Notes under the pieces: generated by a model | Told to the model about the DNA's origin: nothing | Database searches by the model: none | What the model saw: only the letters and a program-made list of their open reading frames with translations | Shown here: one piece after another, positions 1 through 51,300 of the stretch | Layout of the letters: each line of letters begins with the position of its first letter | Numbering within the stretch: the stretch's first letter is position 1 | Made by a program: the position numbers and the translations under genes | Assembly: GCA_043228905.1 (NCBI GenBank) | Contig: JBHGNT010000004.1 | Location: 12,400,001 to 12,464,000 of the forward strand | DNA length: 64,000 nucleotides | Direction of reading: 5' to 3' | Source: Azolla caroliniana | Lineage: Eukaryota; Plantae; Polypodiophyta

Positions 1-408
1 GTCATATTGGGGAACCTTGCCAATTGAACTACTTCCATCTATGCATTATTGTATTGTATAAGTTTCAATTTATTACATTCTATGTTAATCACTAGAACTT
101 TCAAGAAACTTCAGTAGAATGCATCTTCAGGCCCTCTCTAGAAGTTTCCATGCACTCTCTAAATGTTTCCTAGCTTGTATGCATACCACCACATTCTTGT
201 ATAAATACTTCGGTGCACCTTGATTACAATCAAGGTGAACAACACCAAATACGGAAGCATAATTTAGTTCTTGCTCTTTTGTCTACCTTCTCTCTCTCTT
301 GTTCTCTTGTCAATGCTCTCTCTCTCTATCTATATATCTATCTTTCGCTCTCTCTTAATATTTAGCTCGCCTACTTATCCCTGTCCTGGTCTACCCATCC
401 ATGACAAT

Positions 409-4814: not shown

Positions 4815-5244
4815 AGGGAGGATAATGTCATAGACACAATGGAATGCAGGGGTTGAACCCACGATTGGGCAACCTTACCAACATTATTATATTGTATAAG
4901 TTTCAACTTATTACATTCTATGTTAATCACTAGAACATTCAAGAAACTTCTAGAGAATGAATCTTCATGCACTCTCTAGAAGTTTCCATGCACTCTCTAG
5001 ATGTTTCCTATCTTGCATGTATACCACCACATTGTTGTATAAATACTTCGGTGCACCTTGATTACAATCAAGGTGAACAACACTAGTTACGGAAGCATAA
5101 TTTAGTTCTTGCTCTTTTGTCTACCTTCTCTCTCTCTTGTTCTCTTGTCTATGCTCTCTCTCTCTATCTATATATCTATCTTTCGCTCTCTCTTAATATT
5201 TAGCTCGCCTACTTATCCCTGCCCTGGTCTACCCGTCCGTGACA

Positions 5245-5408: not shown

Positions 5409-5470
5409 GGAATCGAACCCACAACCTTGTTATATTCGCATCGAGTTCTTGACCATTGTAATGATATATT
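5409..5470 (-). ncRNA. tRNA-derived Pol III cassette in the element B 5' LTR (copy in the 3' LTR at about 16325-16386)
   Basis: Minus strand reads cattacaatggtcaagaac...aaggttgtgGGTTCGATTCC: a perfect B box, a degenerate A box and 45 nt from U8 to G53. Confidence 0.7.
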
Positions 5471-16295: not shown

Positions 16296-16448
16296 TGACA
16301 CTTACATGCAATTTGGGTTTACAAGGAATCGAACCCATAACCTTGTTATATTCGCATCACGTTCTTGACCATTGTAATGATATATTTATTTGTAAAAGAA
16401 TTGATAAACTATATGAAATACTATAGAGTAATTGTTGAGTACTCTATG

Positions 16449-26051: not shown

Positions 26052-26866
26052 CAGATGAACCCCATGAAGAGGTACGGGTATAACGAATCTATGGCACATC
26101 ATTATGCGTACATGGTGAAGGTGGTAGCAGTGCATGAGCCGGAGAGCTAAGCAGAAGCGGTGAAGGATGCAAATTGGCATGCCACTATGGAGGAAGAGAT
26201 GCACGCACTCATGGAAAATGAGACGTGGGATTTAGTGGACGTACCGAAAGGAGTGAAGCCGATCAATTGTCGATTCGTATACAAGGTTAAATACAACACC
26301 GACGGCTCCGTCAACATGTACAAGGCCCGGTTAGTGGACAAAGGCTACGTGTAGCAGCACGACATCAATTACAATGAGACATTCGCATCGGTCGTGAAGA
26401 TGACAACCGTCCGTGTCTTGCTTGCAGTGGCAATGGCGAAGGGGTAGCATCTACATCGGATGGATGTAAAAAATGTGTTCCTGCAAGGTGATCTTGAGGA
26501 TTAGGTCTTTATGGTTTAGCCCCCTGGATTTTAGTTAGGAGTGAATACATTGACAATGTGCCAATTGAAGAAGTCCCTCTACGGACTCAAGCAAGCCCCA
26601 CGCACCTGGAACGCGAAGATCACACAGAGTCTGCGTCGGATGGGGTTTGCTCCGTCCAAATTGGACTCTTCACTTTTCATTTGGCAAGGTCGAAATGGGC
26701 TGATCAGCATATTGTTGTACGTGGATGATCTTGGCATTGCCGACGACGACCTGGATGAAATCCGTTGCGTCTGTTAGGAATAGTACTGAGACAAAGAAGA
26801 AATTAGTACTAAGAGAGGAATATTAGTACTAAGACGAATAGAGGGTGTAGAACACTCAAGAGAAGA

Positions 26867-26904
<38 letters not shown>

Positions 26905-27136
26905 GAGGGAGAGAAAATGATTATGACAGCGATATATTATGTGAGAAGAATATACAAGGAAGGCTAGGAGGCTTAAGACTAGCGTTGAACCGATTTGGTT
27001 TGAAATAATGCCTTGTGCCTCCTTTTCTAGTGTTCTCAGGTGTAGTCCTAAAGCTTCTAGAATGTTCCAGAGAAATCTGGAATATACATTAATTTTCTAT
27101 AGTAAAACTTAAATAAAAATAATATCCTATGTATTG

Positions 27137-27205
27137 CAATAGATAGTGTAATGGTCAAGAGCTCGACCTATGTAACATAAGATCATGGGTTCCAATCTTG
27201 ACATA
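27137..27205 (+). ncRNA. tRNA-derived Pol III cassette in the element F LTR, antisense to the element (copy at about 37745-37813)
   Basis: A box TAGTGTAATGG at 27144 and 37752; B-box variants GGTTCCAATC and GGTTAGAGTC (consensus GGTTCGANTC); U8 to G53 is 45 nt in both copies. Confidence 0.72.
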
Positions 27206-27774
27206 TCATGACACTATCCTCCCTTTAAAACGACGAGTGTCATGAATCATTTTGGATTGAGGACTCGGTTTATCTGGATATTGACGATGGAAGCCTTCAA
27301 GAAGAGCATGAGCATTGGTCACATTCTCTATTGGTTCCCAAGTACACTCGATGGAACTATATCCTAGCCAATCGACTAAATAGTAGAGCTTGTTGCAAAT
27401 AATCTTGGAATCGAGGATGGCGGCAACCTCGTACTTAGGTCCATCTTCAAGTTCGATCGGGGGTGGAGCTTCTGCTCCGTGTCACTACACTTCTAGCGAC
27501 CTAGGAGGTTATCGGCAGGGTCTTCCTCCGCCTCCTCCTCTTGGGTTCTGATATTGATCTTCGTTGCCAAGGGGTCCGGCTTTTGTTCCTGTCGACGTAG
27601 CTTGATTTTAAGAGGCCTTAGTGGTGGCTCCACGGGTGTCTCTGTCTCTACTTGCCTCTTCTAGCTAGGTGGTTCCTTCCCTTGCTGCGAGGTATTGCCC
27701 TCTTTCCATACAGGCGTGTGCTTGGCCAGGAGTTACTACCGTTTTGAAGTTTTGTTGGGCATGGTCTCCGTTAC

Positions 27775-28300
27775 TCAAACCTGCTTCTTAGTCCTTACTG
27801 GCTCCACCGGTGGCGCCAAAAGAGTCAGCCATTGAGCCACGACCATCCATAATTTCTTGCCGTTCTGCATTGATTCTATCGCCATCCACAAGCAATTGAC
27901 GATGATTACCGACCAATCCACTTGCACCCCTGTGTATGTAGCAATGATAAAACCGTCTTTGTTCTTTGGCATTGCCGAGGGTCGGGGGTACACGAACCCA
28001 TACTCGTGGAGGACATGAGCCACTTCTCTAAATAAGGGGTCCTCCCCGTCTTGTGTCTGGTGAGCCTTACTAGGGAGGGAATACTCGCCAAAAAAATAGG
28101 TTAGCGTTTCAGGAGAAGGGTTCTCGATGGAGGGGATGCCCCCTTCCGGCAGTCCCATTAGAGCGCAGATGGCTTCCTCCGTTATGACTTCCGTGTTGAT
28201 TTTCTACATGACTTCGTCTGCTTCGTCATGGGGAGGTGCCTCTGCTATCCTCAAGAAGTCTCCCAACCCATGTTGGTTGAACCATTTCTTGGCTCTAAAG
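27775..28300 (-). pseudogene. Extra sense ORF downstream of integrase in element I (putative plant transposon protein/env-like)
   Basis: KWFNQHGLGDFLRI...ITEEAICALMGLPEGG...VDWSVII pattern; one internal stop. Family assignment by motif resemblance only. Confidence 0.5.
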
Positions 28301-31300
28301 GTAATACTGGCTGTTGTGGCATGCGTGCTTGTTCCGTTGGCTGGTCCATTCGTTGACACAGATCACATTCCTTCGTATATCGAACCAAGTTCTTTAGTGT
28401 CGCTGGCCACCATAAGCCGATGCGCCATATTTTGTTTGTCGTAGCTTCTCTGGCATAATGTCCTCCAGCGACCCCACAATGCGCTTCCTGTAAGATGGTG
28501 TCTTTTTCATCACTCCAGACCGCTCGCCACCATATGTTGTCTGCTCCTTTATGATATAGTGTATCCTGCACTAGAGAAAATGGTCTGCTTTGCACCGCCA
28601 ACCGTTTACACTCATCCCGGTTCATCCCATCTGGGGGTTGTCCGGTGCTTAAGAATTGGTGCATATTCGTTACCCATTTGTCCTCGTCCGCAACTGTCCA
28701 TCTATGATGGTTTCCGCTGTAATTTTAAACAATGCGGCATCCGAAAATTCATCTTGAACACTATCACCAGTCTCTCCGGATTCTAACCGACTCAAGTAAT
28801 AGGCAAACACGTGTTGTATACCCGGCCGGTGATAGATCTCAAATTCAAATTCTTGTAATAATAATGTCCACCGGGACAGCTTGCCGGTGAGTGATGCCTT
28901 TGAGACCAAGTATAAAAGCGTTGAAAGGTCTACATGGAATGAAAACTTGCGGCCCAACAAATAATGACGGTATTTGGTGACATTGTATATCATTCCTAGG
29001 GCTTCTCTTACCGTAGTGGAATAATTTCGCTCTGCCTTTCACAACTTCCGGCTAGTGTAGTACACCGGCCAATACCACTTATGTTCGGTAAGTTGCATGA
29101 GTACGCTGCCGATTGCAATATCTGACGCATCCACGAAGACATGGAACTCTTTGGACCAATCCGGGGGTTGTACCACTGGTGCTTGTAACAACATTACCTT
29201 GAGTGCATGGTACGCCTTGTCCTCTTCATCCATCCATTTAAACGGTGTCCGGTGTACAGTTGCGTGTAGTGGCATGGCGAGGTTTGCCAAGTACCGGAGC
29301 ATCCGGCTATGCCACCGGATCTGTCCTAAGAACCGGCTTAATGCCTTGGTGGTCATCCGTGCCGATGCCTGCAAAATAGCCTTGACCTTATCCGGGTCCA
29401 TGGCAATCCCCTCCTTGCTAACAATATGACCCAGCAATGTGTCGCTAGTCAAACAGAAGACACATTTTGCCGGGTTTAAGCTTAATCGGTATCCTCTGCA
29501 CTTTTCCAAGCATAACCTGAGATGGTCGAGATGTTCCCCTTTCCGTCTATATACTGCAAAATCATCCAGGAATACCTGCATAAACGCCGGTATGAATTCT
29601 CCAAATACTTCCATAATAATCCTCTGAAAGGTTGCCGGTGCCGTCTTGAGTCCGAACATCATTACAACTGCTACAAAGACTCCCCATTCTGTCACGAACA
29701 CTGTCTTTTCTTGATCGTCCGGGTGCATCCTTATTTGGTTATATCCGCTCAAACCATCGAGGAAGCTATAAACCTCGTGCCCGGCTACCGCATCTAAAAC
29801 TCCATCCATAAACGGAAGCGGAAATGCGTCGATAATCGTTGCCGCATTCAATTTCAGTAATCCACGCAGACATGGATCTTGCCATTCTTCTTCGGCACTA
29901 CAACAATTGGACTTAGCCAAGTGGCTTTCTTCACCAGCCGGATAAAACCAACCCGGAGTAGCATGTCAATTTCCTCCTTTACTCTTGCCATGTAGTTTAG
30001 GTTCATCCGATAGCGTCGTTGTGCCACCGGCTTAGCATCCTTGCTGAGGTGAATCTGGTGTTGATAAAGTTGGGGGTCAAGTCCCCACATATCTTCATAG
30101 GACCAGATGAATACGTCCTGGAATTCTTCTAATAATGTTGTCATTGCCGATTTGTCTCCCAGTGACATCTCGTTGGCCACGTGTACCGGACGCGCTTCCT
30201 CTCCGGTGCCCAAATTTACTTCTTCTAGTTGGGACGCCTTTACTTGTTGGGATACCACCATTTCCCATTCCAAGGCCTCCTATGCTTGCCTCAGTTCCCC
30301 GAGTGCATCCTTATCTGGTTCCACCCCGGCCTCTTCCGTTTGCACAATGTATGGAGATACCGCTTCTGCTACGTCCACTTCGAACAGAGGGACTATCCTT
30401 GGGTTCTCTTCAAGGTAGTGATCCACCTCATCGTCGGCCAGTCCTGCCAGCAGCATGTTCATGCTTTCGGCATATAGTGGGGTTATGTCTTTGCCGGGGC
30501 CTGCTTGCAGTTGCGTGGGTACTCTTACTTTCGCTTTCCCCCTTCGGAATTGTTTTCCTACTAGTTCTGTTTGATATGGGCCGTCCTCAGCCATGGTCGT
30601 CCTAGCAGCAGTGGATATGGACTACCATAGAAATTCGGAAAGCATGACCTTCGATCGTCACCTCCAACTCCCAGATCAAGCCGGTCGGTCGGACTGAGCT
30701 GGTGTCCGCCATCCGGAGCCAGAATGGGCATAGTTCCCACTCCTAAATTCCCAAAATGTCACATGTCTGGAGGCTTATCACATTTACTCTTGATCGGCCA
30801 TCGATTATCGTACCCGGTAGCTCCCGTCCTTTAATAATCGTAGTGATTGCAGGACTGCTCTGGATTTGAAAAGAATGCCAGAGCCGGTGCAGGACTTAAC
30901 GGAGCCATCACCAATTTCAACCCGTCGGTGAACTGGGGCACTAGTTGCAGTAACTGACCCTGATTTGGCATTCTTGAAGTGCTTGCTATGTGGGGTTCTC
31001 TGGCTTTTCCTTTACGGTGAGTTCCTCCACTACATTCGTGTGCTCTTTCATTTCGGTGACATTGTGTTCATTGGCCTTTTCAATCCATTCGGTGGTCTAT
31101 TTTCATATGGCCTCCTGTGCTTGCCATTTTGCCATCTTTCCTTTTGATCTGGTGGTGACTTCCGAGTATTGCTAGATTCTGCTTTTGGTTTGGTACCCTG
31201 TTGAAATTCGGTTACCGCTCGGTTAGGTTCTTCTGTTCTTCTTTGTTTCGGTTGGGCGCTACTTATGCCTCTATATAGCTCTCGTTGGTACTCCTTTTCC

Positions 31301-32459
31301 GGCTCCCGACGATCCTCTTTCCGAAAGTTCCGTTTCTTAATAAAGTGTTTGTTGTTCTTGTAACCTTGCCCGTGCCGGTCTTCATAGTCGCCTCGTTGGT
31401 CCTCCCTCCTCTGGTTGTAGCTTGGAGAGTAATCGCGACCATACCGGTCACCGTTATAATCTTGGTTCCTATCATACCGGTCCTGGTCATAAGCTTCCCA
31501 TCACTGGTCGTAATCTGGTGAGTAGTCCCGTTCATATCGATCTCGATTGTAGCCTTCCCTGCGTCGGTCGTCGCGATCGCGCCCATAGTCGTTGCGTATT
31601 CTATTTTTGTACCGATCCCCACATTCTGGTCGGTATCGGCTCTCCCTCTGGATTCGTTCGTCGTCTGGTTCGTGACTTCTATGTGGTTCAATGATCCGCA
31701 TCGGGGCCGCTTGTCGGTTGAGCAGGCTGTACTCGCATCGGTCCGTTGTGTGTGCCCGTGAGTGGCAAATCATACACTGCATCCTCATTGTGCAGTCTAC
31801 TATTGAATGGCCCAGGTTTAGACACATTGTGCATTGCAACGCTTGGCGAAACCTGAGATCCTCCTGATTTGGAAGGGCCCTTTGCAGGGCTCCCATCGTC
31901 ATCTGGGAGCTATGTTTATCCATTTCTAGCACGCGATCGATGACTTGATCCATTGTGTTGGCTTGGAAATCTAGTATCCCGCACATCGTTTGGAGGGGTT
32001 CCCTTAGAGCGGCCAGAAACACCGCTTTCGCCTCCTCCAGAGGTACCCTTGTTAACTGGTTGTGTAGTGTTTGAAATCAGATGATAAATTGGGGCACTAT
32101 CTCCTGCTCCTCTTGGTGGGTTTTGTAAAATTCCCCGACTAGTTCGTGTTGTTCCACTTGCCTATGGAATAGTCGAAGGAATTTTGTTTTCAAGGCCTCA
32201 AATGTGGCAAAGCTTCTGGGTAGGTGATTTGCGTGCCAGTAGGCCGCCGGTCCCTCTAATGTCATGCCGAATTCGTCAATTTTTGACCGTTCAATTTCTG
32301 GTTAGGTCAACCTTTAGGATACATGATTGGCTTCCCATGTTTGTAGGAACGCATAGACGTGTGCCTCCGCTTCAAGGTCATCACAGTACTTCGAATATGG
32401 GTACGGCATGGTGTAGTCTTCGGAAGGTTGTACCGGAGATGTGTCGTTTAGTTCTTGCT

Positions 32460-32625
32460 TTGCGGGTGGTGTTGGTGCATGGTTTTCTGCTTCCTCCGCA
32501 GTTGATGTTGGCATGCGGTTTTCCGCTATCTCCGCGGGTGGTGTTGGTGTGCGGTTTTCCGCTTCCTCCGCAGGTGGTGTTGGCGCGTTTTTTTCCGTTG
32601 TCTCCGCGGGTTGTGTTGGTGCGCG
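32460..32625 (-). repeat. About 33-bp tandem repeat in gag of I encoding PTPPAEEAENR-like units
   Basis: ORF 32314-32715: APTQPAETTEKN APTPPAEEAENR TPTPPAEIAENR MPTSTAEEAENH APTPPA. The peptide units are 12 aa, so the period may be 36 bp. Confidence 0.8.
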
Positions 32626-35600
32626 GTTGAATTCGTCGTCCTCCAAATCGTCCAGAGTATCGTGGCTGCTTTTGTAATTCGAAGAATACCTCCGAGTCTC
32701 CGTTGCCTCCGGCAAGCGTCCGCAGTTGCGCTTCTACCTCTTGCAGGCTTGTAAGACTACTGCCCTCGTCGGAAAGTTGTTGTTTTTGGAACCGAAGTGC
32801 TTCTTCCACGACCCTCCAAAGCACTCTGGGAAAAGACCAATCCTGATGGATCTCCTCGGTCGCTTGCTGGAAGGCTTCCCACCTTTGTTGTCTTTCGGCA
32901 AGTCTCCTTCCTCGTTCGGTGCCTTGGTCGTTAGACGATCGAGACATCCATCCCCCGGTGTTCTCTACTCACTGCAAGAATTGTGGTTGCCAAAAATTGT
33001 GTTATCCCTTAGGTTGGACAAGCCCTAACACAGGGTGTCCCTATGGAACACTTCACTAAAGGGTGGTATGGGGAGATATGGATAAACCGTGGTATTGAAT
33101 GGCTCTTAACCGGTTACTAACGGACATTGTTGATGATCGTAACAGATGCGTAAGATTAATTATATTAAGCATAGGACGGTAACCAAATAGATACTAAACA
33201 CTATGTAAAATAACAGCACTTCTTTTAATTATCCATCTTTGATTACATTCTTGTCGGGTCCTTTTATAGGTCTCCGACTGAGTTACAAACCGGAGCCAAC
33301 CGGAAACCGGCAACGATCCGGTCCGGATCCGAATCGGCATACTGATTCTGGGTCCGTTTGTCTGCTTCTCAAAATGACATAATAACATAATTAAATCCTT
33401 ATTAATTTCAACTCCCTATTCCTAATTAAACACCCCTTTCACATTCTGGACTCTAATTGGCCCTTTGTCCTTGCCGGCCAACAGTCCTAGAATGGTGCTG
33501 TCTTGATAGGGTTCGAGGAGAGAACTATGAAACACTAGATGTATGCGAAGTTTAGGGTTTAGGGTAGGTCGAGATGAAAAGTGACATCATTAATCTTTCC
33601 GATAATACGAAAAGGACCTAATCACCGATAATCCAACTTCTCGCATGGGCGAGTAGTCTTGATGTGTCGTCGTAGTAGCCATACCCGATCTCCAATGTTA
33701 AAACTATATGGAAGCCGATGAGGATCCATGTAAACCTTGTGTGTTTGTTGAGCTTGTTGTAGATGAGTAGATAAATCTGCTTTGTATCTTGCATAACCGC
33801 TCCTAACGATCCTCTGCGCAAGGATTTGTGGGTAACTCTGGGGTTTCAAATACACACCACCGGGGGTGACAACCCGTATAAGCATAAAATGGGGTAACTT
33901 TAGTCGATGAGCGGAGAGCGTTATTATAGGCAAATTCGGCAAGGTGGAGAATATCCGCCCAGTTATCTTGATGATAGCTTAGAAAGCACTGAAGATACTG
34001 CTCCAGCATTTGATTTGTTCATTCTGCTTGGTCATCGTTTTGCGGGTGCTAGCTTGAGGAGAGGTTACAAGTGACCTTGGGCATTTTAAAAAGGTGCTTC
34101 CAAAATTTCGAGACGAACTAGGGTCCACAGTCGTTGATGATATTATCAGGAAGGCCATGATGCCGACATACTTCACGCATGAGAATTTCGGCGGTTTCTT
34201 CACTGGATATTTCCTTATTACATGGCAGGAAATGAGCCATCTTTGTATATCAATCTACTACTATTAGAATTGCATTGAATCCCTTAGAGACTGGAAGATC
34301 TGTGATGAAATCTAGAGCAATGGATTGCCATGGCTTGCTTGGAATTGGTAATGGTTCTAATAAACCATATGGATGATGCCTTGACATTTTTGCTCTGCAA
34401 CATGTATCACAAGTCCGAACAAAATCTTCGACAAATTGTCGCATACAGGGCCACCAGAATGATTGTTGTATACTAAATCTAATGTCTTAGTACTACCAAA
34501 ATGCCCAGCTGTATATGTGTCATGACAGTTTTGGACTACTCGAAGGCGGCAAGAACCATTAGGAACATACAAGAGTTTCTTAAAGAATTGTGATCCATCA
34601 TGACATTCGAATTGTCGATAGTCCGTACTTGGTTGTTGCAACTGTGAACAAGATGCTCGAGAGGGATCAATTTGTGCTAGAATGGCTTGGGTGAAAGCAT
34701 TTGTCTTCAAGTCCTCACGTATGGTATCGATAACATGGGAATCCAAGGGCATGCCGAAGACCTGTGTTCCTTGCAGTCGTGTCGGTCCCAAGACTACTTG
34801 CTTTTGGTTATCAAAAGCTAGCTCGCCGGGATACGATGCTAGATATGAACGCCGTGATAATGCAACTGCTTCCCTTGGTGCTTCCCCAGACGATATGTAA
34901 TTTTGAAGTCGAAACGCGTGAGGAATTGGGCCCACCAAGCTTGACATCGATTTAACACACGAGCACTCTCAAAGTAGGCAAGGTTTTTGTGATCACTGAA
35001 TACAGTGACTTGATGAGAGGATCCCTCTAGAAAATGCCTCCATTGCGTAAAAGAGTCCACTATTGCTAATAGCTCCTTATCATGAATTTCATAGTTGATT
35101 TCGGCGGCGTCAAACTTGTGTGAGTGGAAAGCCATAGGATGTAGTTTTCCATCATTACCTTGTTTTGACAAAATGCTACCTAATGCGAAATCCGACGCGT
35201 CCGCTTCCATGATGAATGGTTTTTTCGGATCAAGGTGAGCTAGAATAGGAGCTGATGTAAATGCCTTCTTAAGATTCTCAAAAGCCATGTCCACTTCTTC
35301 AGACCAAACGAACGATTGTCCCTTCTTAGTAAGTTGTGTGAGAGGCAGAACAAGCTTTGAGTAATCCTATATAAACTTGCGGTAGAAATTGGCAAAGCCT
35401 AAAAAGCATTTCACATCTCGCAACGAACGTGGATTTTGCCACTGTACCACCATTTTGACCTTAGTTAGATCCATGGAGATGCCTTCCGAGGAGATGACAT
35501 AGCCCCGAAATTCCACCTGGTTGCACTCGAAACTACATTTTTCCAGCTTTGCATAAAGACCATGTTCTCGAAGTCATTTTCGTACTAACAGTACATGAGA

Positions 35601-36098
35601 ATCATGCTCTTCTTGGGTCTTTGAATAAACCAGTAGATCATCCAAATAGATGATCAAATAAACATCCAAGAGACCTCGCAATATGTCATTTGCCATGTGT
35701 TGGAAGACTGTTGGCACATTAGCGAGGCCGAATGGCATGACCGTATACTCGAAGTGCCCATATTTGGTGCGAAACGCGGTCTTCCATTCATCTTGTGGTC
35801 GGATCCGTACGAGGTTATATGCTCCCCATAAGTCGATCTTCGTGAAGAACATTGCACCATTGATCTGTTCTAAAAGACTTGAGATAAGGGGAAGTGCATA
35901 CCTATTTCTTATGGTGACCTTATTCAAGCCATGGTAATCCACAACGAGACGAAGTGATCCATCCTTTTTCTTGATGAAGAAAATGGGTGCGTCGGTTGGA
36001 GATTTCGAATGCCGAATGAAACCATTTTCCAAACTCTCCTCTATATAGGCTCGAAGGACTTCTAGCTCTAAGGACTTCCACTAATGGGCTACAGAGAT

Positions 36099-36151
36099 CT
36101 AGGGTTGTCCAACCAAACAACTCCTATTTTGGCTAGACTTAGTCGTTTAAC
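36099..36151 (-). promoter_or_regulatory. -1 frameshift signal at the gag-pol junction of F
   Basis: Minus strand G TTA AAC gactaa gtctagccaa...ttggttggac aaccctag, same layout as in B. Confidence 0.75.
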
Positions 36152-37387
36152 TCTTCTTCTAACTCACTAAGGACATCAAATTTGTTCGCTAGATTTGGGC
36201 TATTAGTACTATTAGGACTATCATATATTCCTACTGAAATAGACTCGGGTTTAGTACAATTAGAACTAGCAACTATTTGGTTTACCTATCTTCTTGGCCT
36301 ATGGGGACAATTTACTGCAATATGCCCTGGTCCACCGCAATAAAGACATAGTCGATTTGCTCAACGTCGTTGCTTTTCTTCTTCTGATAATGGTACGCGA
36401 CGACGTGTAGTGTCAATCTCCATCGGGGTTGAAGTATTCACTGGAGACGCATTATATGACTCCCTCAGTAAAGGTTTCGCTACCACTGAGGCGTAGGTGG
36501 GCTCTGATCTTGACCTCGGCATCTGGAATTACCGTTCCAAACGTCGTTCGAAAAGGCAGTTCTCGCATCTCACTACGCGACTGATTGCTTATGTTAATGA
36601 CTTTGGTTCTTCGGGGAAGGTCAAGAGTAAATCCTTGACATCGTTGCATAAACCATAACGAAATTGCTCCACCAATTCTTGATCATCCCAAGGGATATCG
36701 GCTGCAAGTAGGCGGAAATCTGCAGCATATGCGAAGGCTAGACGATCACCTTGGCATAATCGTCGGATTTTGTTGATTGTTGTCCTTATGCTGTCAGTAT
36801 CTCCAAAACAGGCTTTAAACTCACATATAAATTCTTCAAAATTGTTTAGTAATGGAAACTCCTTTTCTAACAACGGAGCGAACCATGCCAATGTTGAGCC
36901 ACTAAGTAGAGTGCCTACTAGTCCCACTCATGATGCATCAATGGGATATCGAGAAGGATGCATTTGAATCACTAAACATACCTGATTCAGAAAACCTCTA
37001 AACTATGATCGGGTCCCATCGAATTTTGCAGGAAGACTGATCTTGGGTTCTTTGTGAATCCCTTGAGTGCTTGATCCTTGTTGTTTTAGTGATACAATAG
37101 TCGCATCAAGTTGTTGTACACGCAACGTCAGCTCCCCGTGTTGTTGTTTTTCCAACGTTATTTGTTGAAGATCCCCCAACAAACAGTGATTTTCTTGTTC
37201 TAGTGCTACAAAATTCTCTTTTTAGCACTGGAGCTCCGAGAAAACATATTGGTATTCCTGAGCGCTAACAATTTCCATTTTACTAGGGAGGATAAGTGGT
37301 AAGAAGATGAGGGAAACCAGAAAGAAAACCGGAAAACTGGGATATGTAAGAAGATAAAAGGAAGAGGATGAGACGGAAGGAGGGAAA

Positions 37388-37399
37388 AAATCGGTTCAA
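37388..37399 (-). promoter_or_regulatory. Self-priming PBS of element F
   Basis: aaatcggttcaa (+) is the 12-nt reverse complement of ttgaaccgattt at 37594-37605, which begins about 33 nt downstream (minus strand) of TATAAAA at 37638-37632. Confidence 0.8.
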
Positions 37400-37936
37400 A
37401 CTATCAGGAATAGTATTGAGACAGAGAAGAAATTAGTACTAAGAGAGGAATATTAGTACTAAGAACAATAGAGGTTGTAGAACACTCGAGAGAAGGATAG
37501 AGAGAGAGTGAGAGATTGAGGGAGAGAAAATGATTATGACAATGATATATTATGTGAGAAGAATATACAAGGCTAGGAGGCTTAAGACTGGCATTGAACC
37601 GATTTGGTTCAAAATAATGCCTTGTGCCTCCTTTTATAGTGTTCTCAGGAGTAGTCCTGAAGCTTCTAGAATGTTCCAGAGAAATCTGGAATATACATTA
37701 ATTTTCTATAGTAAAACTTAAATAAAATAATATTCTACATATTATAATAGATAGTGTAATGGTGAAGAGCTCGACCCATGTAACATAAGGTCATGGGTTA
37801 GAGTCTTGCTATATCATGACAGCGTCAAATCTTAGCTCGCGGCATCATTCGAAATGAAGGATCTCCGTGACCTTTATTACTTCCTCGGGATCAAAGTGAT
37901 CCGCACTCCAGAACGACATGCGACCAATAAGGTTCC

Positions 37937-43810: not shown

Positions 43811-44356
43811 CTAAGACAACATGGAAATGGTGACATCAAAACGAAGGACAAAGTAGGTTGGGACTTTAAAGGCAATTGTACTTATGGAAGCAATACCATG
43901 GGCATTTTGATAAAGGCCAGTGCCACCAGTGATGGGGATGGAACGTTGTGGCGGGTTCGAAGTATTTGCGAATATTCTCTCAACACCATGGAAAGAGAGG
44001 GAACCCTTCCCATCCAAAAATGCAGTGAAAGACCATAAGGCGCTAGGTTGAACACGTCCACAATACACATATAGGCCTTGGGCCCTCCCTAAAACCACCT
44101 TTGTAGAAGATTTTGATGATGGCCCTATTGTCAACTCATCATCGAACACAAACATGCGCCCAAAATTTGCGAAAGGAGAGCTCATGTTTTTGGCCATATC
44201 CACTTCCTTTGCTGCAGTGTTGAAACTAACATTTTTGTATAATGATAAATCATGCAAGTAGAATGTTACCTTGTGCGTCGTTTCACCCCTCACTAATTCT
44301 ATCTTTCTCATAATAAATAATGCGACCAACAAAGACATAAATTGGTTAATATCCAT
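43811..44356 (-). CDS. Dirigent-family protein (secreted, single exon, 181 aa)
   Basis: Hydrophobic N-terminal signal followed by the dirigent motifs FYLHD, FGRMFVFDDELTIGP, GRAQGLY, SFTAF...GSLSFHG and IPITGGTGLYQNAHG; intact ATG-to-stop ORF. Confidence 0.93.
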   Translation of the reverse strand: MDINQFMSLLVALFIMRKIELVRGETTHKVTFYLHDLSLYKNVSFNTAAKEVDMAKNMSSPFANFGRMFVFDDELTIGPSSKSSTKVVLGRAQGLYVYCGRVQPSALWSFTAFLDGKGSLSFHGVERIFANTSNPPQRSIPITGGTGLYQNAHGIASISTIAFKVPTYFVLRFDVTISMLS

Positions 44357-44455
44357 ATCCTAGCTCCTTTGCACGTGTGTGTGTGTGAACGCTAAAAGGA
44401 TATCTATCTATCTATCCCCCTCTCTATGGCCATGTGTCTTGTATGCTCACGGTTA

Positions 44456-48233: not shown

Positions 48234-48300
48234 AATAAGCTATCTTAATGGTTGAGGTTTTCCACTATGGATTGCAAGGTTTGAAGTTCAAGTCCATGTG
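48234..48300 (+). ncRNA. tRNA-derived cassette in the J LTR, antisense to the element (copies at about 50663-50730 and a second, shortened unit at 50731-50780)
   Basis: A-box-like TATCTTAATGG at 48241 and 50670; B box GTTCAAGTCC or GGTTCAAGTTC with G53 at 48286 and 50715 (45 nt). Confidence 0.65.
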
Positions 48301-51300
48301 ACACCATAATGGAGGCTATTCATGACACAATCTTATTGCGCACAATCTTAGAATCGAGAATGGCGGCTACCTTGTACTCTAGGCCATCAACAAGTTGGAG
48401 AGGAGGCGGTGGCAGCACGACACAATTGGGAATTGAGTTGGTGTGGTAAGGTTCCAAAAGAGAGTTGTGAAAGATTGGATCCAAGACAGAATGTTGCATC
48501 ATTAATCCACTTCGTGATGACAAAAGGACCCCAGAGTTTATAATCTAGCTTATCACACGGTCAAGTAGTCTTTATGTGACGGCGTAACAACCATACCCGA
48601 TCACCAACCTTGAATGGAGACAGAAGATGATCTTGATCTGTGTGGGCCTTACTTTGGGCTTGAGCTTTCTGAAGATGTGAAGAAAACTTGGACTGGAGGT
48701 GTTGGAGTCGGTGAAGGTGCTGCTCTGCACTAGGGTTTGGTGAGATCACTGGAATGTCCAAGAGACACCATCGAGGATGGTTGCTAGTAGAGGCATAGAA
48801 AGGTGTCACCTTGGTAGAAGAGTGTATGGTGTTATTGTGTGCAAACTCTACAAGATGCAATATATGACTCCAATCATCAGATTGATAATTGATGAAACAT
48901 CGAAGATACTGCTCAAGTGTTTGATTTGTGCGCTTTGTTTGGCCATCAGTTTCGGGATGATATGCTGAAGAGAGTTTGCAAGAGATTCGGAGCCCGTCAC
49001 ATAGGTGCTTCCAAAAGTGAGAGATAAATTGCGGACCATGATCACTAATTATGTTGTTTGGAAGACCATGATGACGAAATACTTCGCCGATAATGATATC
49101 TGTTGTTTCTTGACTACTGATGCTTTTTACGTAGGGCAAGAAATGTGCCATCTTGGTAAATCGATCCACTACTATTAAAATAGCATCAAAACCATGTGAA
49201 GGTGGCAAATTTGTAATGAAATCCATAGAAATTGATTGCCATGGCTTGCTCGGAGTCGGCAACAGTTCTAACAACCCATAAGCATGATGCCTAGGAATTT
49301 TAGCTCAACAACATGTGTCACATGTGCGAACGTAATCTTCAACAAATTGTTGTAAATGAGGCCACCAAAATGATCGCTTCACTAGCTCCATGGTCTTAGC
49401 AATACCAAAGTGTCTGGCCATACGGGCATCATGACAGTGCTCCAACACTCGAAGGTGTGGTGATCGATCAGGGACATAAAGGAGATTCTTGTACAAAAGC
49501 AAGTTATCTTGCCACTTTAACTCCTTATAGTGTCGAGATGTCCTTGGAATTGTGGAGCAAAATGCATGATTTGGACCAAGGTGAGCGAAGAGATCCTCAA
49601 AAAAATCATCAGAGTGAAGTTGTTATCGAATAGTATCAAGAAGAGTTGAATCCAGTGGCGTGGCACAAACCGTGGTTGCTTGTAGTTTTGCTGGACCAAG
49701 GAGAACTTGCATTTGATTGTCGAAAGCTGGATCTCCAAGGCGAAGTGCCAAATATGAGCGTCGAGATAGAGCATCTGCTTGCCCTTGTTTTTTCCCTGGG
49801 CGGAAAATGATCTTGAATTCAAAACGAGTTAAAAAATTGCACCCACCGAGCTTGTCGGCTATGTAGCACTCGAGCCGTCTAAAAATATGTAAGATTTTTG
49901 TGGTCACTGTAAATGATGATTTGATGAGGCAAACCTTCCAAGAAATGTCACCATTGCACAAAAGAGTCGACCATAACAAGTAACTCTTTGTCCTGCAGCT
50001 CATAGTTGACCTCTGCAACATTAAAATTTATTGAGTGAAACGCGACTGGATGTAATTGCCCATCTTCACCTGGCTGTGATAGGATGCTCCCAAACGCAAA
50101 GTCGGATGCGTCTGCTTCAATGATAAATGGCTTTTTTGGATCAACATGAGCTAAGACAGGAGCTGATGTGAATGCCTCTTTCAACTCAGTAAAGGCTTTG
50201 TCTACTTCAGGAGTCCAAACAAATGCTGGATTTCTCTTGGTGAGTTGAGTGAGCGACAATACAATTTTCGAATAATTCCATATGAATTTGCGGTAGAAGT
50301 TGGCAAATCCAAGGAAACACTGGACATCGCAGATGGAACTTGGAGTATGCCATTCCAATATTGTTTGAACTTTCACTGGATCCATGAAGATACCTTTGGA
50401 TGAAATGGTACTAACCCAAGAACTCAACTTCTTTGCAATCAAAACTGCACTTCTCCAGTTTGGCATAAAGACCATACTCTCTTACACGTTGGAGTACCTT
50501 CCGCACATGTATATCATGCTCCGCCTGTGTTCTAGAGTAAATCAATAGATAATCTAAATAGACCTAGAATGTTCTAAGACATTCTAGAACATTCTAGAAT
50601 GATCTAGAGTTTTTACAATAATCAATGTAATATAGAAAGTAGCTTTTATTTTCTTATATGACAATAAGCTATCTTAATGGTTGAGGTTTTCAACTATGGA
50701 TTACAAAGTTTGAGGTTCAAGTTCGGGTGATGCCCTAATGGTCATGTGTTCATGACATAGTCTTGGGTTCAAGTCTAGGAGAAGAATAATGTTCACGGAT
50801 TCATGACACCTAGGGGCTATTATAAGCAACTAGGGCAAACCTTATAGTTAGAGTTAGTTGATTATTATTGTAAAGTTAGAACGAGGTAGTTGCCTCTGTA
50901 ATCGTGAGTGAGAGTGTAACTCTGTAGCCATCTGTCAGACGAAGGAGAAATCGAGGTCGTTACCTCTGAGTTCCATATTTATACTTCCTCTCTACTACAA
51001 TGATCTGTTTTTCTCGGGGTTTGTGTACCCCCGTAGTTTTTCCTATTTCGGGTTTTCCACGTAAAATATCGGTGTCTCTGTCTTCAAATTTTTCGTCTAT
51101 GTACTAGCTCTTGGTTTCTGCACACGAAGACGAACATGTAACTGGTTGTGGCCGGTCGATTCCTAACAAATGGTATCAGAGTGATGGAAGACTCGTTTGG
51201 TGGCATGTTTAAGCTTACCGGCTCCAACTATTGAGTGTGGAAGTCGAATATGAGAGACATGCTCATGTGCAAAGACCTCTCTCTGCCTTCCGGTGTAGTT

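What the first reader, a model, noticed from the sequence alone, without database searches (positions are those of the whole stretch)
27137..27205. Four divergent coding chromoviruses carry an antisense tRNA-derived Pol III cassette at the outer end of their LTRs
Seen: within about 110 bp of the TGTCA terminus each chromovirus LTR has A-box/B-box sequence antisense to the element. In F it is TAGTGTAATGG at 27144/37752 with B boxes converging on GGTTCGANTC. In B it is GGTTCGATTCC at 5419-5409 and 16335-16325. In J it is TATCTTAATGG at 48241/50670 with GTTCAAGT. In A it is TAGTTCAATTGG at 31-20 and GGTTCAACCCC at 4859-4849 (split between the two LTRs). In B, F and J the U8-to-G53 distance is exactly 45 nt, the canonical tRNA geometry, and AAGGT-like sequence precedes the T arm, although the flanking LTR sequence is poorly alignable. 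Established: Cassandra (5S rRNA) and Helenus (tRNA-like) TRIMs carry small-RNA-derived LTR segments but are non-autonomous, and B boxes bind TFIIIC and can act as chromatin barriers. Inference: this is a lineage-wide, selected module in autonomous-type elements. It could insulate the LTR promoter from heterochromatin, or make a short antisense RNA across the PPT (in F the first T4 is at 27250-27253, predicting about 115 nt). I do not know of a description of this arrangement but cannot search.
Basis: partly seen in the sequence, partly recalled or inferred. Interest (0 to 1): 0.85.

Follow-up and report, generated by a model that had tools for sequence, protein, structure and literature searches.

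The report
Retrotransposon LTRs keep tRNA promoter boxes
A whole group of protein-coding plant jumping genes carries a worn-down, backwards-facing piece of a tRNA gene at the start of its end repeats; the promoter boxes are kept while nearby sequence has drifted, so the piece likely recruits the tRNA-gene transcription factor and may shield the element's own promoter from silencing.

Summary
Real and not chance. All four chromoviruses in the window, and most chromodomain-selected relatives in the genome, carry an antisense tRNA-like segment at the start of U3 in both LTRs. A pattern for it occurs 4226 times against 10 for the reversed control. The elements are self-priming Tcn1-type chromoviruses, and some family members have unbroken pol frames. 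The B box and a degenerate A box (G10 mostly lost) persist across families whose integrase synonymous sites are saturated. The cloverleaf and a terminator are not kept, so the boxes look selected rather than an RNA product. The family A/A2 cassette matches a free SINE-like repeat (at least 672 copies), so it was captured from it or gave rise to it. Selaginella SM-Tcn1 lacks the cassette, so it is not Tcn1-wide. Best reading: a DNA-level TFIIIC/Pol III site upstream of a heat-shock-type Pol II promoter, possibly a chromatin barrier. Main rival: a Ty3-like tRNA-pairing site in U3. No RNA or ChIP data were available. The scan earlier noted antisense tRNA remnants in the 3' region (not the LTR) of fungal chromoviruses. 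New variant of a known kind.

The parts
27144..27154 (+). Degenerate A box (tRNA positions 8-19) of the cassette in the 3' LTR of element F; antisense to the element
27188..27197 (+). B box (positions 52-61), mutated at position 57 in this copy; preceded by a variable-loop-like AGGTC segment (one change here)
27209..27228 (-). Start of the 3' LTR (TGTCA, 27213-27209) and the polypurine tract just before it
27055..27067 (.). Three alternating GAA/TTC units resembling a heat-shock element (motif recalled, function untested), between the cassette and the Pol II start
26985..26996 (-). Predicted self-primer (12 nt complementary to the sequence after the 5' LTR), downstream of the TATA position
27266..27466 (-). 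Group I chromodomain at the end of pol of element F
26772..37821 (-). Element F, Tcn1-type chromovirus; LTRs 92% identical; 5-bp target duplication at 26767-26771 and 37822-37826; holds a nested divergent Ty3/gypsy insertion
37752..37805 (+). Cassette in the 5' LTR of F (B box mutated at position 56), pointing out of the element
5409..5463 (-). Cassette in the 5' LTR of element B (intact B box, weak A box)
16325..16379 (-). Cassette in the 3' LTR of element B
48241..48294 (+). Cassette in the left LTR piece of the internally deleted element J
50670..50775 (+). Cassette in the right LTR piece of J, followed by a second B-box arm (50766-50775) and a second terminus
4849..4885 (-). Deleted cassette in the 3' LTR of element A (B box kept, A box lost)
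1..40 (-). A-box half of the cassette in the 5' LTR of A; the rest lies just outside the window

Best explanation
These self-priming Tcn1-type chromoviruses carry a degenerate, antisense tRNA-like segment at the start of U3 whose B box and A-box core persist across saturated families; it likely acts in the DNA as a TFIIIC/Pol III site and would keep the neighbouring LTR promoter open. Shown: position, orientation, copy number, box conservation, loss of cloverleaf and terminator, and kinship of the A/A2 cassette with a free SINE-like repeat. Inferred: capture of a tRNA or SINE head by the ancestor of this radiation, with a later exchange in A/A2; selection on the boxes; TFIIIC binding. Most speculative: group I chromodomains are proposed to steer integration into heterochromatin, so a TFIIIC site between flanking chromatin and the heat-shock-type Pol II promoter of the 5' LTR would work as a portable tDNA-style barrier. 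My odds: tRNA-derived and constrained 0.9; DNA-level TFIIIC function about 0.6; barrier role specifically about 0.35.
For: Pattern count 4226 vs 10. Copies chosen by chromodomain alone have a strict antisense B core in 21 of 28 and 27 of 35 LTR starts, 0 on the sense strand, with about 0.2 expected from shuffles. In 17 family representatives: T8 15, R9 17, Y11 17, A14 17, GG 16 of 17; T8-G53 is 44-45 nt in all 17, while B box to LTR end varies from 21 to 55 nt. Four-fold sites of integrase among F, J, B and A are 0.26-0.35 identical at 48-69% protein identity. A versus A2: cassette 0.79-0.84, adjacent U3 0.50-0.51, which is shuffle level. In 72 F-like copies, 0 of 6 columns at positions 14-19 carry common variants, against 11 of 45 upstream columns. 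Only the two innermost T-stem pairs are kept, the acceptor stem only in A. TFIIIB/C and tRNA-gene barriers in yeast and animals: PMC9540200 passages. Chromodomain targeting: PMC3350952 passages.
Against: No binding, chromatin or RNA data. G10 of the A box is kept in only 1 of 17 families. In the Q and R families the G19-to-52 distance is 40 nt and Q's A box is poor, so only the B box is general. The variable-loop AGGT segment is also conserved (A 17, G 14, G 15, T 16 of 17), which a pure box model does not explain. Genomic copies lose the B box, often at its CpG, suggesting methylation rather than protection. tDNA barriers are described for yeast and animals, not plants, in the review passages read. 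All 17 representatives were anchored on the B core and 8 of 17 came from a pattern that fixed the A-side motif and spacing; the link of 4 of them (L1-L3, L250) to a chromodomain was not shown. Families share ancestry and are not independent. One chromodomain copy (L343) has only a vestigial cassette.
Confidence: 0.5

Rival explanations
1. RNA-level site: in the genomic RNA the U3 segment is complementary to the D and TPsiC arms of a host tRNA, which would bridge or dimerise the RNA ends and help strand transfer, as the 3' part of the bipartite PBS does in Ty3.
For: Same place and polarity as in Ty3, where the TPsiC and D arms of tRNA-iMet pair with U3 (PMC5371799 passages). A tRNA-like sequence in HIV-1 U3-R is reported to promote minus-strand transfer (seen only as a passage and reference in PMC6468702). 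The conserved variable-loop segment lengthens the complement to class I tRNAs.
Against: F, J and A are predicted self-primers with 11-12 nt matches and no tRNA PBS. No tested host tRNA stands out as partner: best identities are 0.58-0.67 to different isotypes among 16 tested. Positions 59-60 and the anticodon region vary freely. The self-primers of J and A cannot pair with the U3 box.
Confidence: 0.2
2. The selected product is a short antisense Pol III RNA that crosses the PPT in the 3' LTR or runs into the flank from the 5' LTR and regulates the element or its silencing.
For: A and B boxes at canonical spacing with an AT-rich upstream region. Foamy virus LTRs hold Pol III miRNA genes with A/B boxes (PMC3993851 passages). 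If the SINE-like repeat arose from the A/A2 cassette, that would imply past Pol III transcription.
Against: The first T4 lies 1-2 nt after C61 in 3 of 17 families, 15-86 nt away in 8, and beyond about 190 nt in 6 (flanks of single copies enter these figures). The fold is not conserved.
Confidence: 0.15
3. Neutral relic of an old tRNA or SINE capture, copied along with the LTR.
For: A free SINE-like repeat shares the A/A2 cassette at 0.76-0.84. SM-Tcn1 does without it. Copies decay after insertion.
Against: The boxes survive where synonymous sites and adjacent U3 are at or near random identity, and the B box persists at 15-55 nt from the terminus.
Confidence: 0.08
4. The kept letters serve on the sense strand as Pol II enhancer sites or terminal signals that happen to descend from a tRNA.
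For: The segment lies just upstream of heat-shock-like arrays and TATA and near the integrase attachment end.
Against: The invariant positions are those of the B box (53-56, 58, 61) with 59-60 free, and the distance to the terminus varies widely.
Confidence: 0.07

Closest known systems
Helenus / Cassandra / Ajax TRIMs (TRIMp3; Kojima 2024, PMC10886601; main text parts 1-4 of 6 and one supplement passage read)
   Same: Small-RNA-gene-derived segment in both LTRs; boxes conserved, tRNA function lost; origin by SINE insertion proposed.
   Different: Those are non-coding and 311-1263 bp long; the segment is in sense orientation in the Helenus LTRs I saw, including Helenus-1_SMo, and is proposed as the element's promoter. 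Here it is antisense, in 5-kb coding elements that keep a TATA promoter. Kojima notes that 'not a few LTRs' in Repbase have tRNA-like parts but analysed only TRIMs, so undescribed database cases may exist.
Tcn1 clade chromoviruses (SM-Tcn1; PMC2864245 passages and file S3; PMC6317226 passages)
   Same: Group I chromodomain, self-priming, TGTCA/TGACA ends, fungal-like RT.
   Different: The SM-Tcn1 LTR shows no antisense A/B boxes (by eye); the passages read mention none.
Ty3 bipartite PBS and the HIV-1 U3-R tRNA-like sequence (PMC5371799 passages; HIV paper not held, seen as a citation)
   Same: U3 sequence complementary to tRNA arms in an autonomous retroelement.
   Different: There it matches the specific primer tRNA; here the elements are predicted to self-prime and no specific tRNA matches.
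Foamy virus LTR Pol III miRNA cassettes (PMC3993851 passages)
   Same: A/B-box units inside the LTR of an autonomous retroelement.
   Different: They make defined hairpin RNAs with terminators; here neither fold nor terminator is conserved.
tDNA / TFIIIC chromatin barriers of yeast and animals (PMC9540200 passages)
   Same: B box placed between repeat chromatin and a promoter.
   Different: Host loci, tested by experiment; here mobile, degenerate, untested, and in a plant.

Membership tests
Tcn1 chromovirus | Ty3/gypsy domain set with C-terminal group I chromodomain | tested here: met
   Pfam chromodomain in full-length relatives
Tcn1 chromovirus | Self-priming, no tRNA PBS | tested here: met
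   11-12 nt LTR/PBS complement in F, J and A; not resolved for B and B2
Tcn1 chromovirus | RT-RH-INT tree placement with reference Tcn1 sequences | tested here: inconclusive
   No reference set was at hand. Named RT relatives: fungal 65-66%, angiosperm 52-54%. Likeness to SM-Tcn1 judged by eye.
Helenus / TRIMp3 | Non-coding, short (about 1 kb or less) | tested here: not met
   About 5.2-kb elements with pol frames up to 1203 aa
Helenus / TRIMp3 | tRNA-derived segment with A/B boxes in both LTRs | tested here: met
Helenus / TRIMp3 | Segment oriented to transcribe the element | tested here: not met
   Antisense in 48 of 63 chromodomain-selected LTR starts, sense in 0
Pol III type 2 promoter | B box GTTCRANNC | tested here: met
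   mutated in both window copies of F
Pol III type 2 promoter | A box TRGYnnAnnnG(G) (consensus recalled) | tested here: inconclusive
   T8, R9, Y11, A14, GG kept; G10 in 1 of 17
Pol III type 2 promoter | TFIIIC binding and Pol III transcription | not testable with these tools
   No raw RNA reads or ChIP data
Functional tRNA gene | Cloverleaf above tRNA cut-offs | tested here: not met
Ty3-type bipartite PBS | 5' PBS and U3 site complementary to one primer tRNA | tested here: not met
   No tRNA PBS; no specific match among 16 host tRNAs, an incomplete set

The most novel reading that the evidence does not exclude
Heterochromatin-targeting autonomous retrotransposons have domesticated a tRNA/SINE promoter as a portable TFIIIC barrier that guards their own heat-shock promoter, renewed it from a SINE at least once, and spread thousands of such sites through a plant genome.
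Probability: 0.35. Interest if true: 0.82.

Novelty: new variant of a known kind. Interest (0 to 1): 0.62.

Why it matters
tRNA-derived LTR segments were described in non-coding TRIMs as their own promoter, and that paper expected little LTR sharing with autonomous partners. Here a coding lineage keeps such boxes backwards through saturating divergence, which asks for a different function. If TFIIIC binds, this is a transposon-borne anti-silencing element and a test system with thousands of copies for whether tDNA barriers work in plants. If tRNA pairs there instead, self-priming elements still use tRNA. It also offers a route between SINEs and LTRs.

Tried and rejected
ARAGORN and whole-window Rfam: no tRNA. 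A first genome pattern had the spacing miscounted and gave only 61 matches; redone. Expression: no RNA holder listed; the three runs laid were contigs only and say nothing on transcription or strand. Isotype of origin: not resolved. The position-8 and acceptor-stem columns were off by one and were redone. Pairing of the self-primer with the U3 box: fits F and B only, rejected for J and A. Both trees are quick trees with midpoint roots. The five outgroup rows labelled 'no cassette' were checked only over 260 nt after the chromodomain and by a whole-contig model scan; an LTR start was visible in only 2 of 14 distant contigs, so their status is weak. The 800-kb count includes false matches; the by-eye count is used. 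Other LTR elements of the window: 6 of 7 repeats have no B core, one has a single hit far from its end. The HIV paper was not held. The REXdb table and sequence files of PMC6317226 were too large to read and the .doc files of PMC2864245 were unreadable; they could show the cassette in other Tcn1 elements. Supplements of PMC7466625 were listed, not read.

Full report
Setting. The window is C4:12400001-12464000 of a 523-Mb assembly. It holds nested Copia and Ty3/gypsy elements and a dirigent-like gene. Elements A, B, F and J end in a group I chromodomain (J's is cut short), and in A, B and F a polypurine tract and TGTCA follow. F has a 5-bp target duplication and LTRs 92% identical. After the 5' LTR there is no tRNA PBS; F, J and A have an 11-12 nt complement inside the LTR just downstream of TATA. 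Named RT relatives are fungal at 65-66% and angiosperm at 52-54%. This fits the self-priming Tcn1 clade, known from mosses and lycophytes (PMC6317226, PMC3350952, passages). The host is therefore probably a non-seed land plant (inferred, not identified).

Observation. The window copies are poor examples: both F B boxes are mutated, A's 3' cassette is deleted and its 5' cassette runs off the window. I fetched 30 top copies per family. Intact A copies look like a tRNA with a paired acceptor stem. Rfam RF00005 finds 2 of 20 LTR fragments, under cut-off. A model from 14 tRNA genes of this assembly places its best hit on the cassette, antisense, in 20 of 20, strongly for A, moderately for F, weakly for B and J. 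Over the whole window only A's 3' LTR reaches E<0.05.

Spread. A pattern of D-loop, B core and LTR end matches 4226 times against 10 reversed. To avoid choosing by the cassette, I chose by chromodomain: strict antisense B core in 21 of 28 LTR starts (30 F-like loci, one being the window copy) and 27 of 35 (40 of 150 A-like hits, picked mostly from the lower identities), none on the sense strand, about 0.2 expected. In 800 kb of contiguous stretches chosen near the window or near known copies there were 9 chromodomains, 7 with an intact LTR start: 5 with the cassette, 1 with the B box deleted, 1 vestigial (by eye). Of 33 close metagenome contigs, 23 reach an LTR start and all 23 show the cassette by eye, 19 with an intact B core; 0 of 14 distant contigs show it within 260 nt, though only 2 of those show an LTR start. 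Carriers form one side of a quick integrase tree with two deep branches (SH-aLRT 94-96). Family members with unbroken frames near 1200 aa occur on both branches. SM-Tcn1 of Selaginella lacks the cassette by eye, so it is not clade-wide.

Constraint. In 17 family representatives T8, R9, Y11, A14 and G18-G19 are kept (15, 17, 17, 17, 16 of 17) but G10 in only 1. T8-G53 is 44-45 nt in all, while B box to terminus is 21-55 nt. All were anchored on the B core and 8 came from the spacing pattern; the other 9 show the same spacing. On the A branch, found by protein only, four more families keep the B box, with G19-to-52 distances of 33, 34, 40 and 40 nt, so fixed spacing is common but not universal. 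Four-fold sites among F, J, B and A are saturated (0.26-0.35). A and A2 share 0.79-0.84 of the cassette but only 0.50-0.51 of adjacent U3. The cloverleaf is not kept outside A, and there is no conserved T4. The variable-loop AGGT is also conserved, which I cannot explain by the boxes alone.

Origin. A T-arm-only pattern gave 4560 matches; of the first 30, 14 were LTRs, 13 a free SINE-like repeat (4 of them one tandem cluster), 1 a tRNA-Ile gene and 2 unassigned. That repeat has at least 672 copies and scores as tRNA-like. Its first unit is 0.76-0.84 identical to the A/A2 cassette and 0.49-0.66 to other families, with shuffles near 0.48. A/A2 sit inside a branch whose other families have unrelated-looking cassettes. 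Either A/A2 replaced an older cassette with a SINE head at the same place and polarity, or the repeat arose from the cassette. The direction is open.

Mechanism. The LTR reads, in element sense: terminus, antisense cassette, AT-rich spacer, heat-shock-like arrays, TATA, self-primer, R/U5. Kept boxes with lost fold and terminator point to a DNA-bound factor, most simply TFIIIC (inferred). In the 5' LTR that site lies between flanking chromatin and the Pol II promoter. The MAGGY group I chromodomain binds H3K9me2/3 and is proposed to target heterochromatin (PMC3350952), and TFIIIC and tRNA genes act as barriers in yeast and animals (PMC9540200); a barrier role is thus coherent but untested, and the passages read give no plant case. 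The main rival is Ty3-like pairing of tRNA D and T arms with U3 (PMC5371799). Frequent CpG loss in genomic B boxes shows that most old copies are not protected.

Prior art. Ten full-text searches found no description of antisense tRNA-derived boxes in LTRs of coding Tcn1 or other plant chromoviruses; subscription journals and Repbase notes were not searchable, and unread supplements could bear on this. Read: PMC10886601 (parts 1-4 of 6, passages, one supplement passage); PMC2864245 (passages, file S3 whole); passages of PMC6317226, PMC5371799, PMC6468702, PMC3993851, PMC7466625, PMC9540200, PMC3350952, PMC13570524. Earlier scan notes report antisense tRNA remnants behind pol in fungal chromoviruses and suggest a moss host; neither was tested here.

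Verdict. Observation confirmed; interpretation partly supported. It works like a Pol III type 2 / TFIIIC site by sequence, is not a Helenus TRIM, and is not a functional tRNA. New variant of a known kind; interest 0.62.

Noticed in passing
L308-L313, L318-L322, L324, L325, L327, L233 (G000:C1): Free interspersed repeat of about 230 bp with two tRNA-like units facing each other, an A-rich tail and neighbouring (GA)n runs; at least 672 copies by exact pattern. Its first unit matches the A/A2 cassette.
   Followed up: partly
window 27055-27067 and the LTRs of A, B, J, B2: Arrays of alternating GAA/TTC units like heat-shock elements lie between the cassette and TATA; weak or absent in A2 and Q.
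   Followed up: partly
window 50765-50810; L063 and related loci: Some J-family LTRs end twice: a J terminus followed by a second B-box arm and an M-type terminus (9 unique instances), suggesting template switching that duplicates the B box.
   Followed up: no
L425, L438-L443: A young family on the A branch (pol frames near 1200 aa) has a perfect B box only 6 nt from the LTR end and a longer distance to a poor A box.
   Followed up: partly
window ~27800-33300: A divergent Ty3/gypsy element (RT about 33% identical to F-type RT) is nested in the integrase region of F; not checked whether it belongs to the PPT-less lineage noted in earlier findings.
   Followed up: no
window 43811-44359 (-): Dirigent-like host gene among the repeats.
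   Followed up: partly
L266:553-626 and 832-905: Two intact tRNA genes lie 500-800 bp upstream of a chromodomain on one metagenome contig.
   Followed up: no
PMC2864245 file S3: SM-Tcn1, reported there without evidence of self-priming, shows by eye a 12-nt LTR match to the sequence after its 5' LTR, as in family J.
   Followed up: no
L232:3949-5055: Chromodomain plus LTR start repeated three times in tandem (354-bp unit).
   Followed up: no
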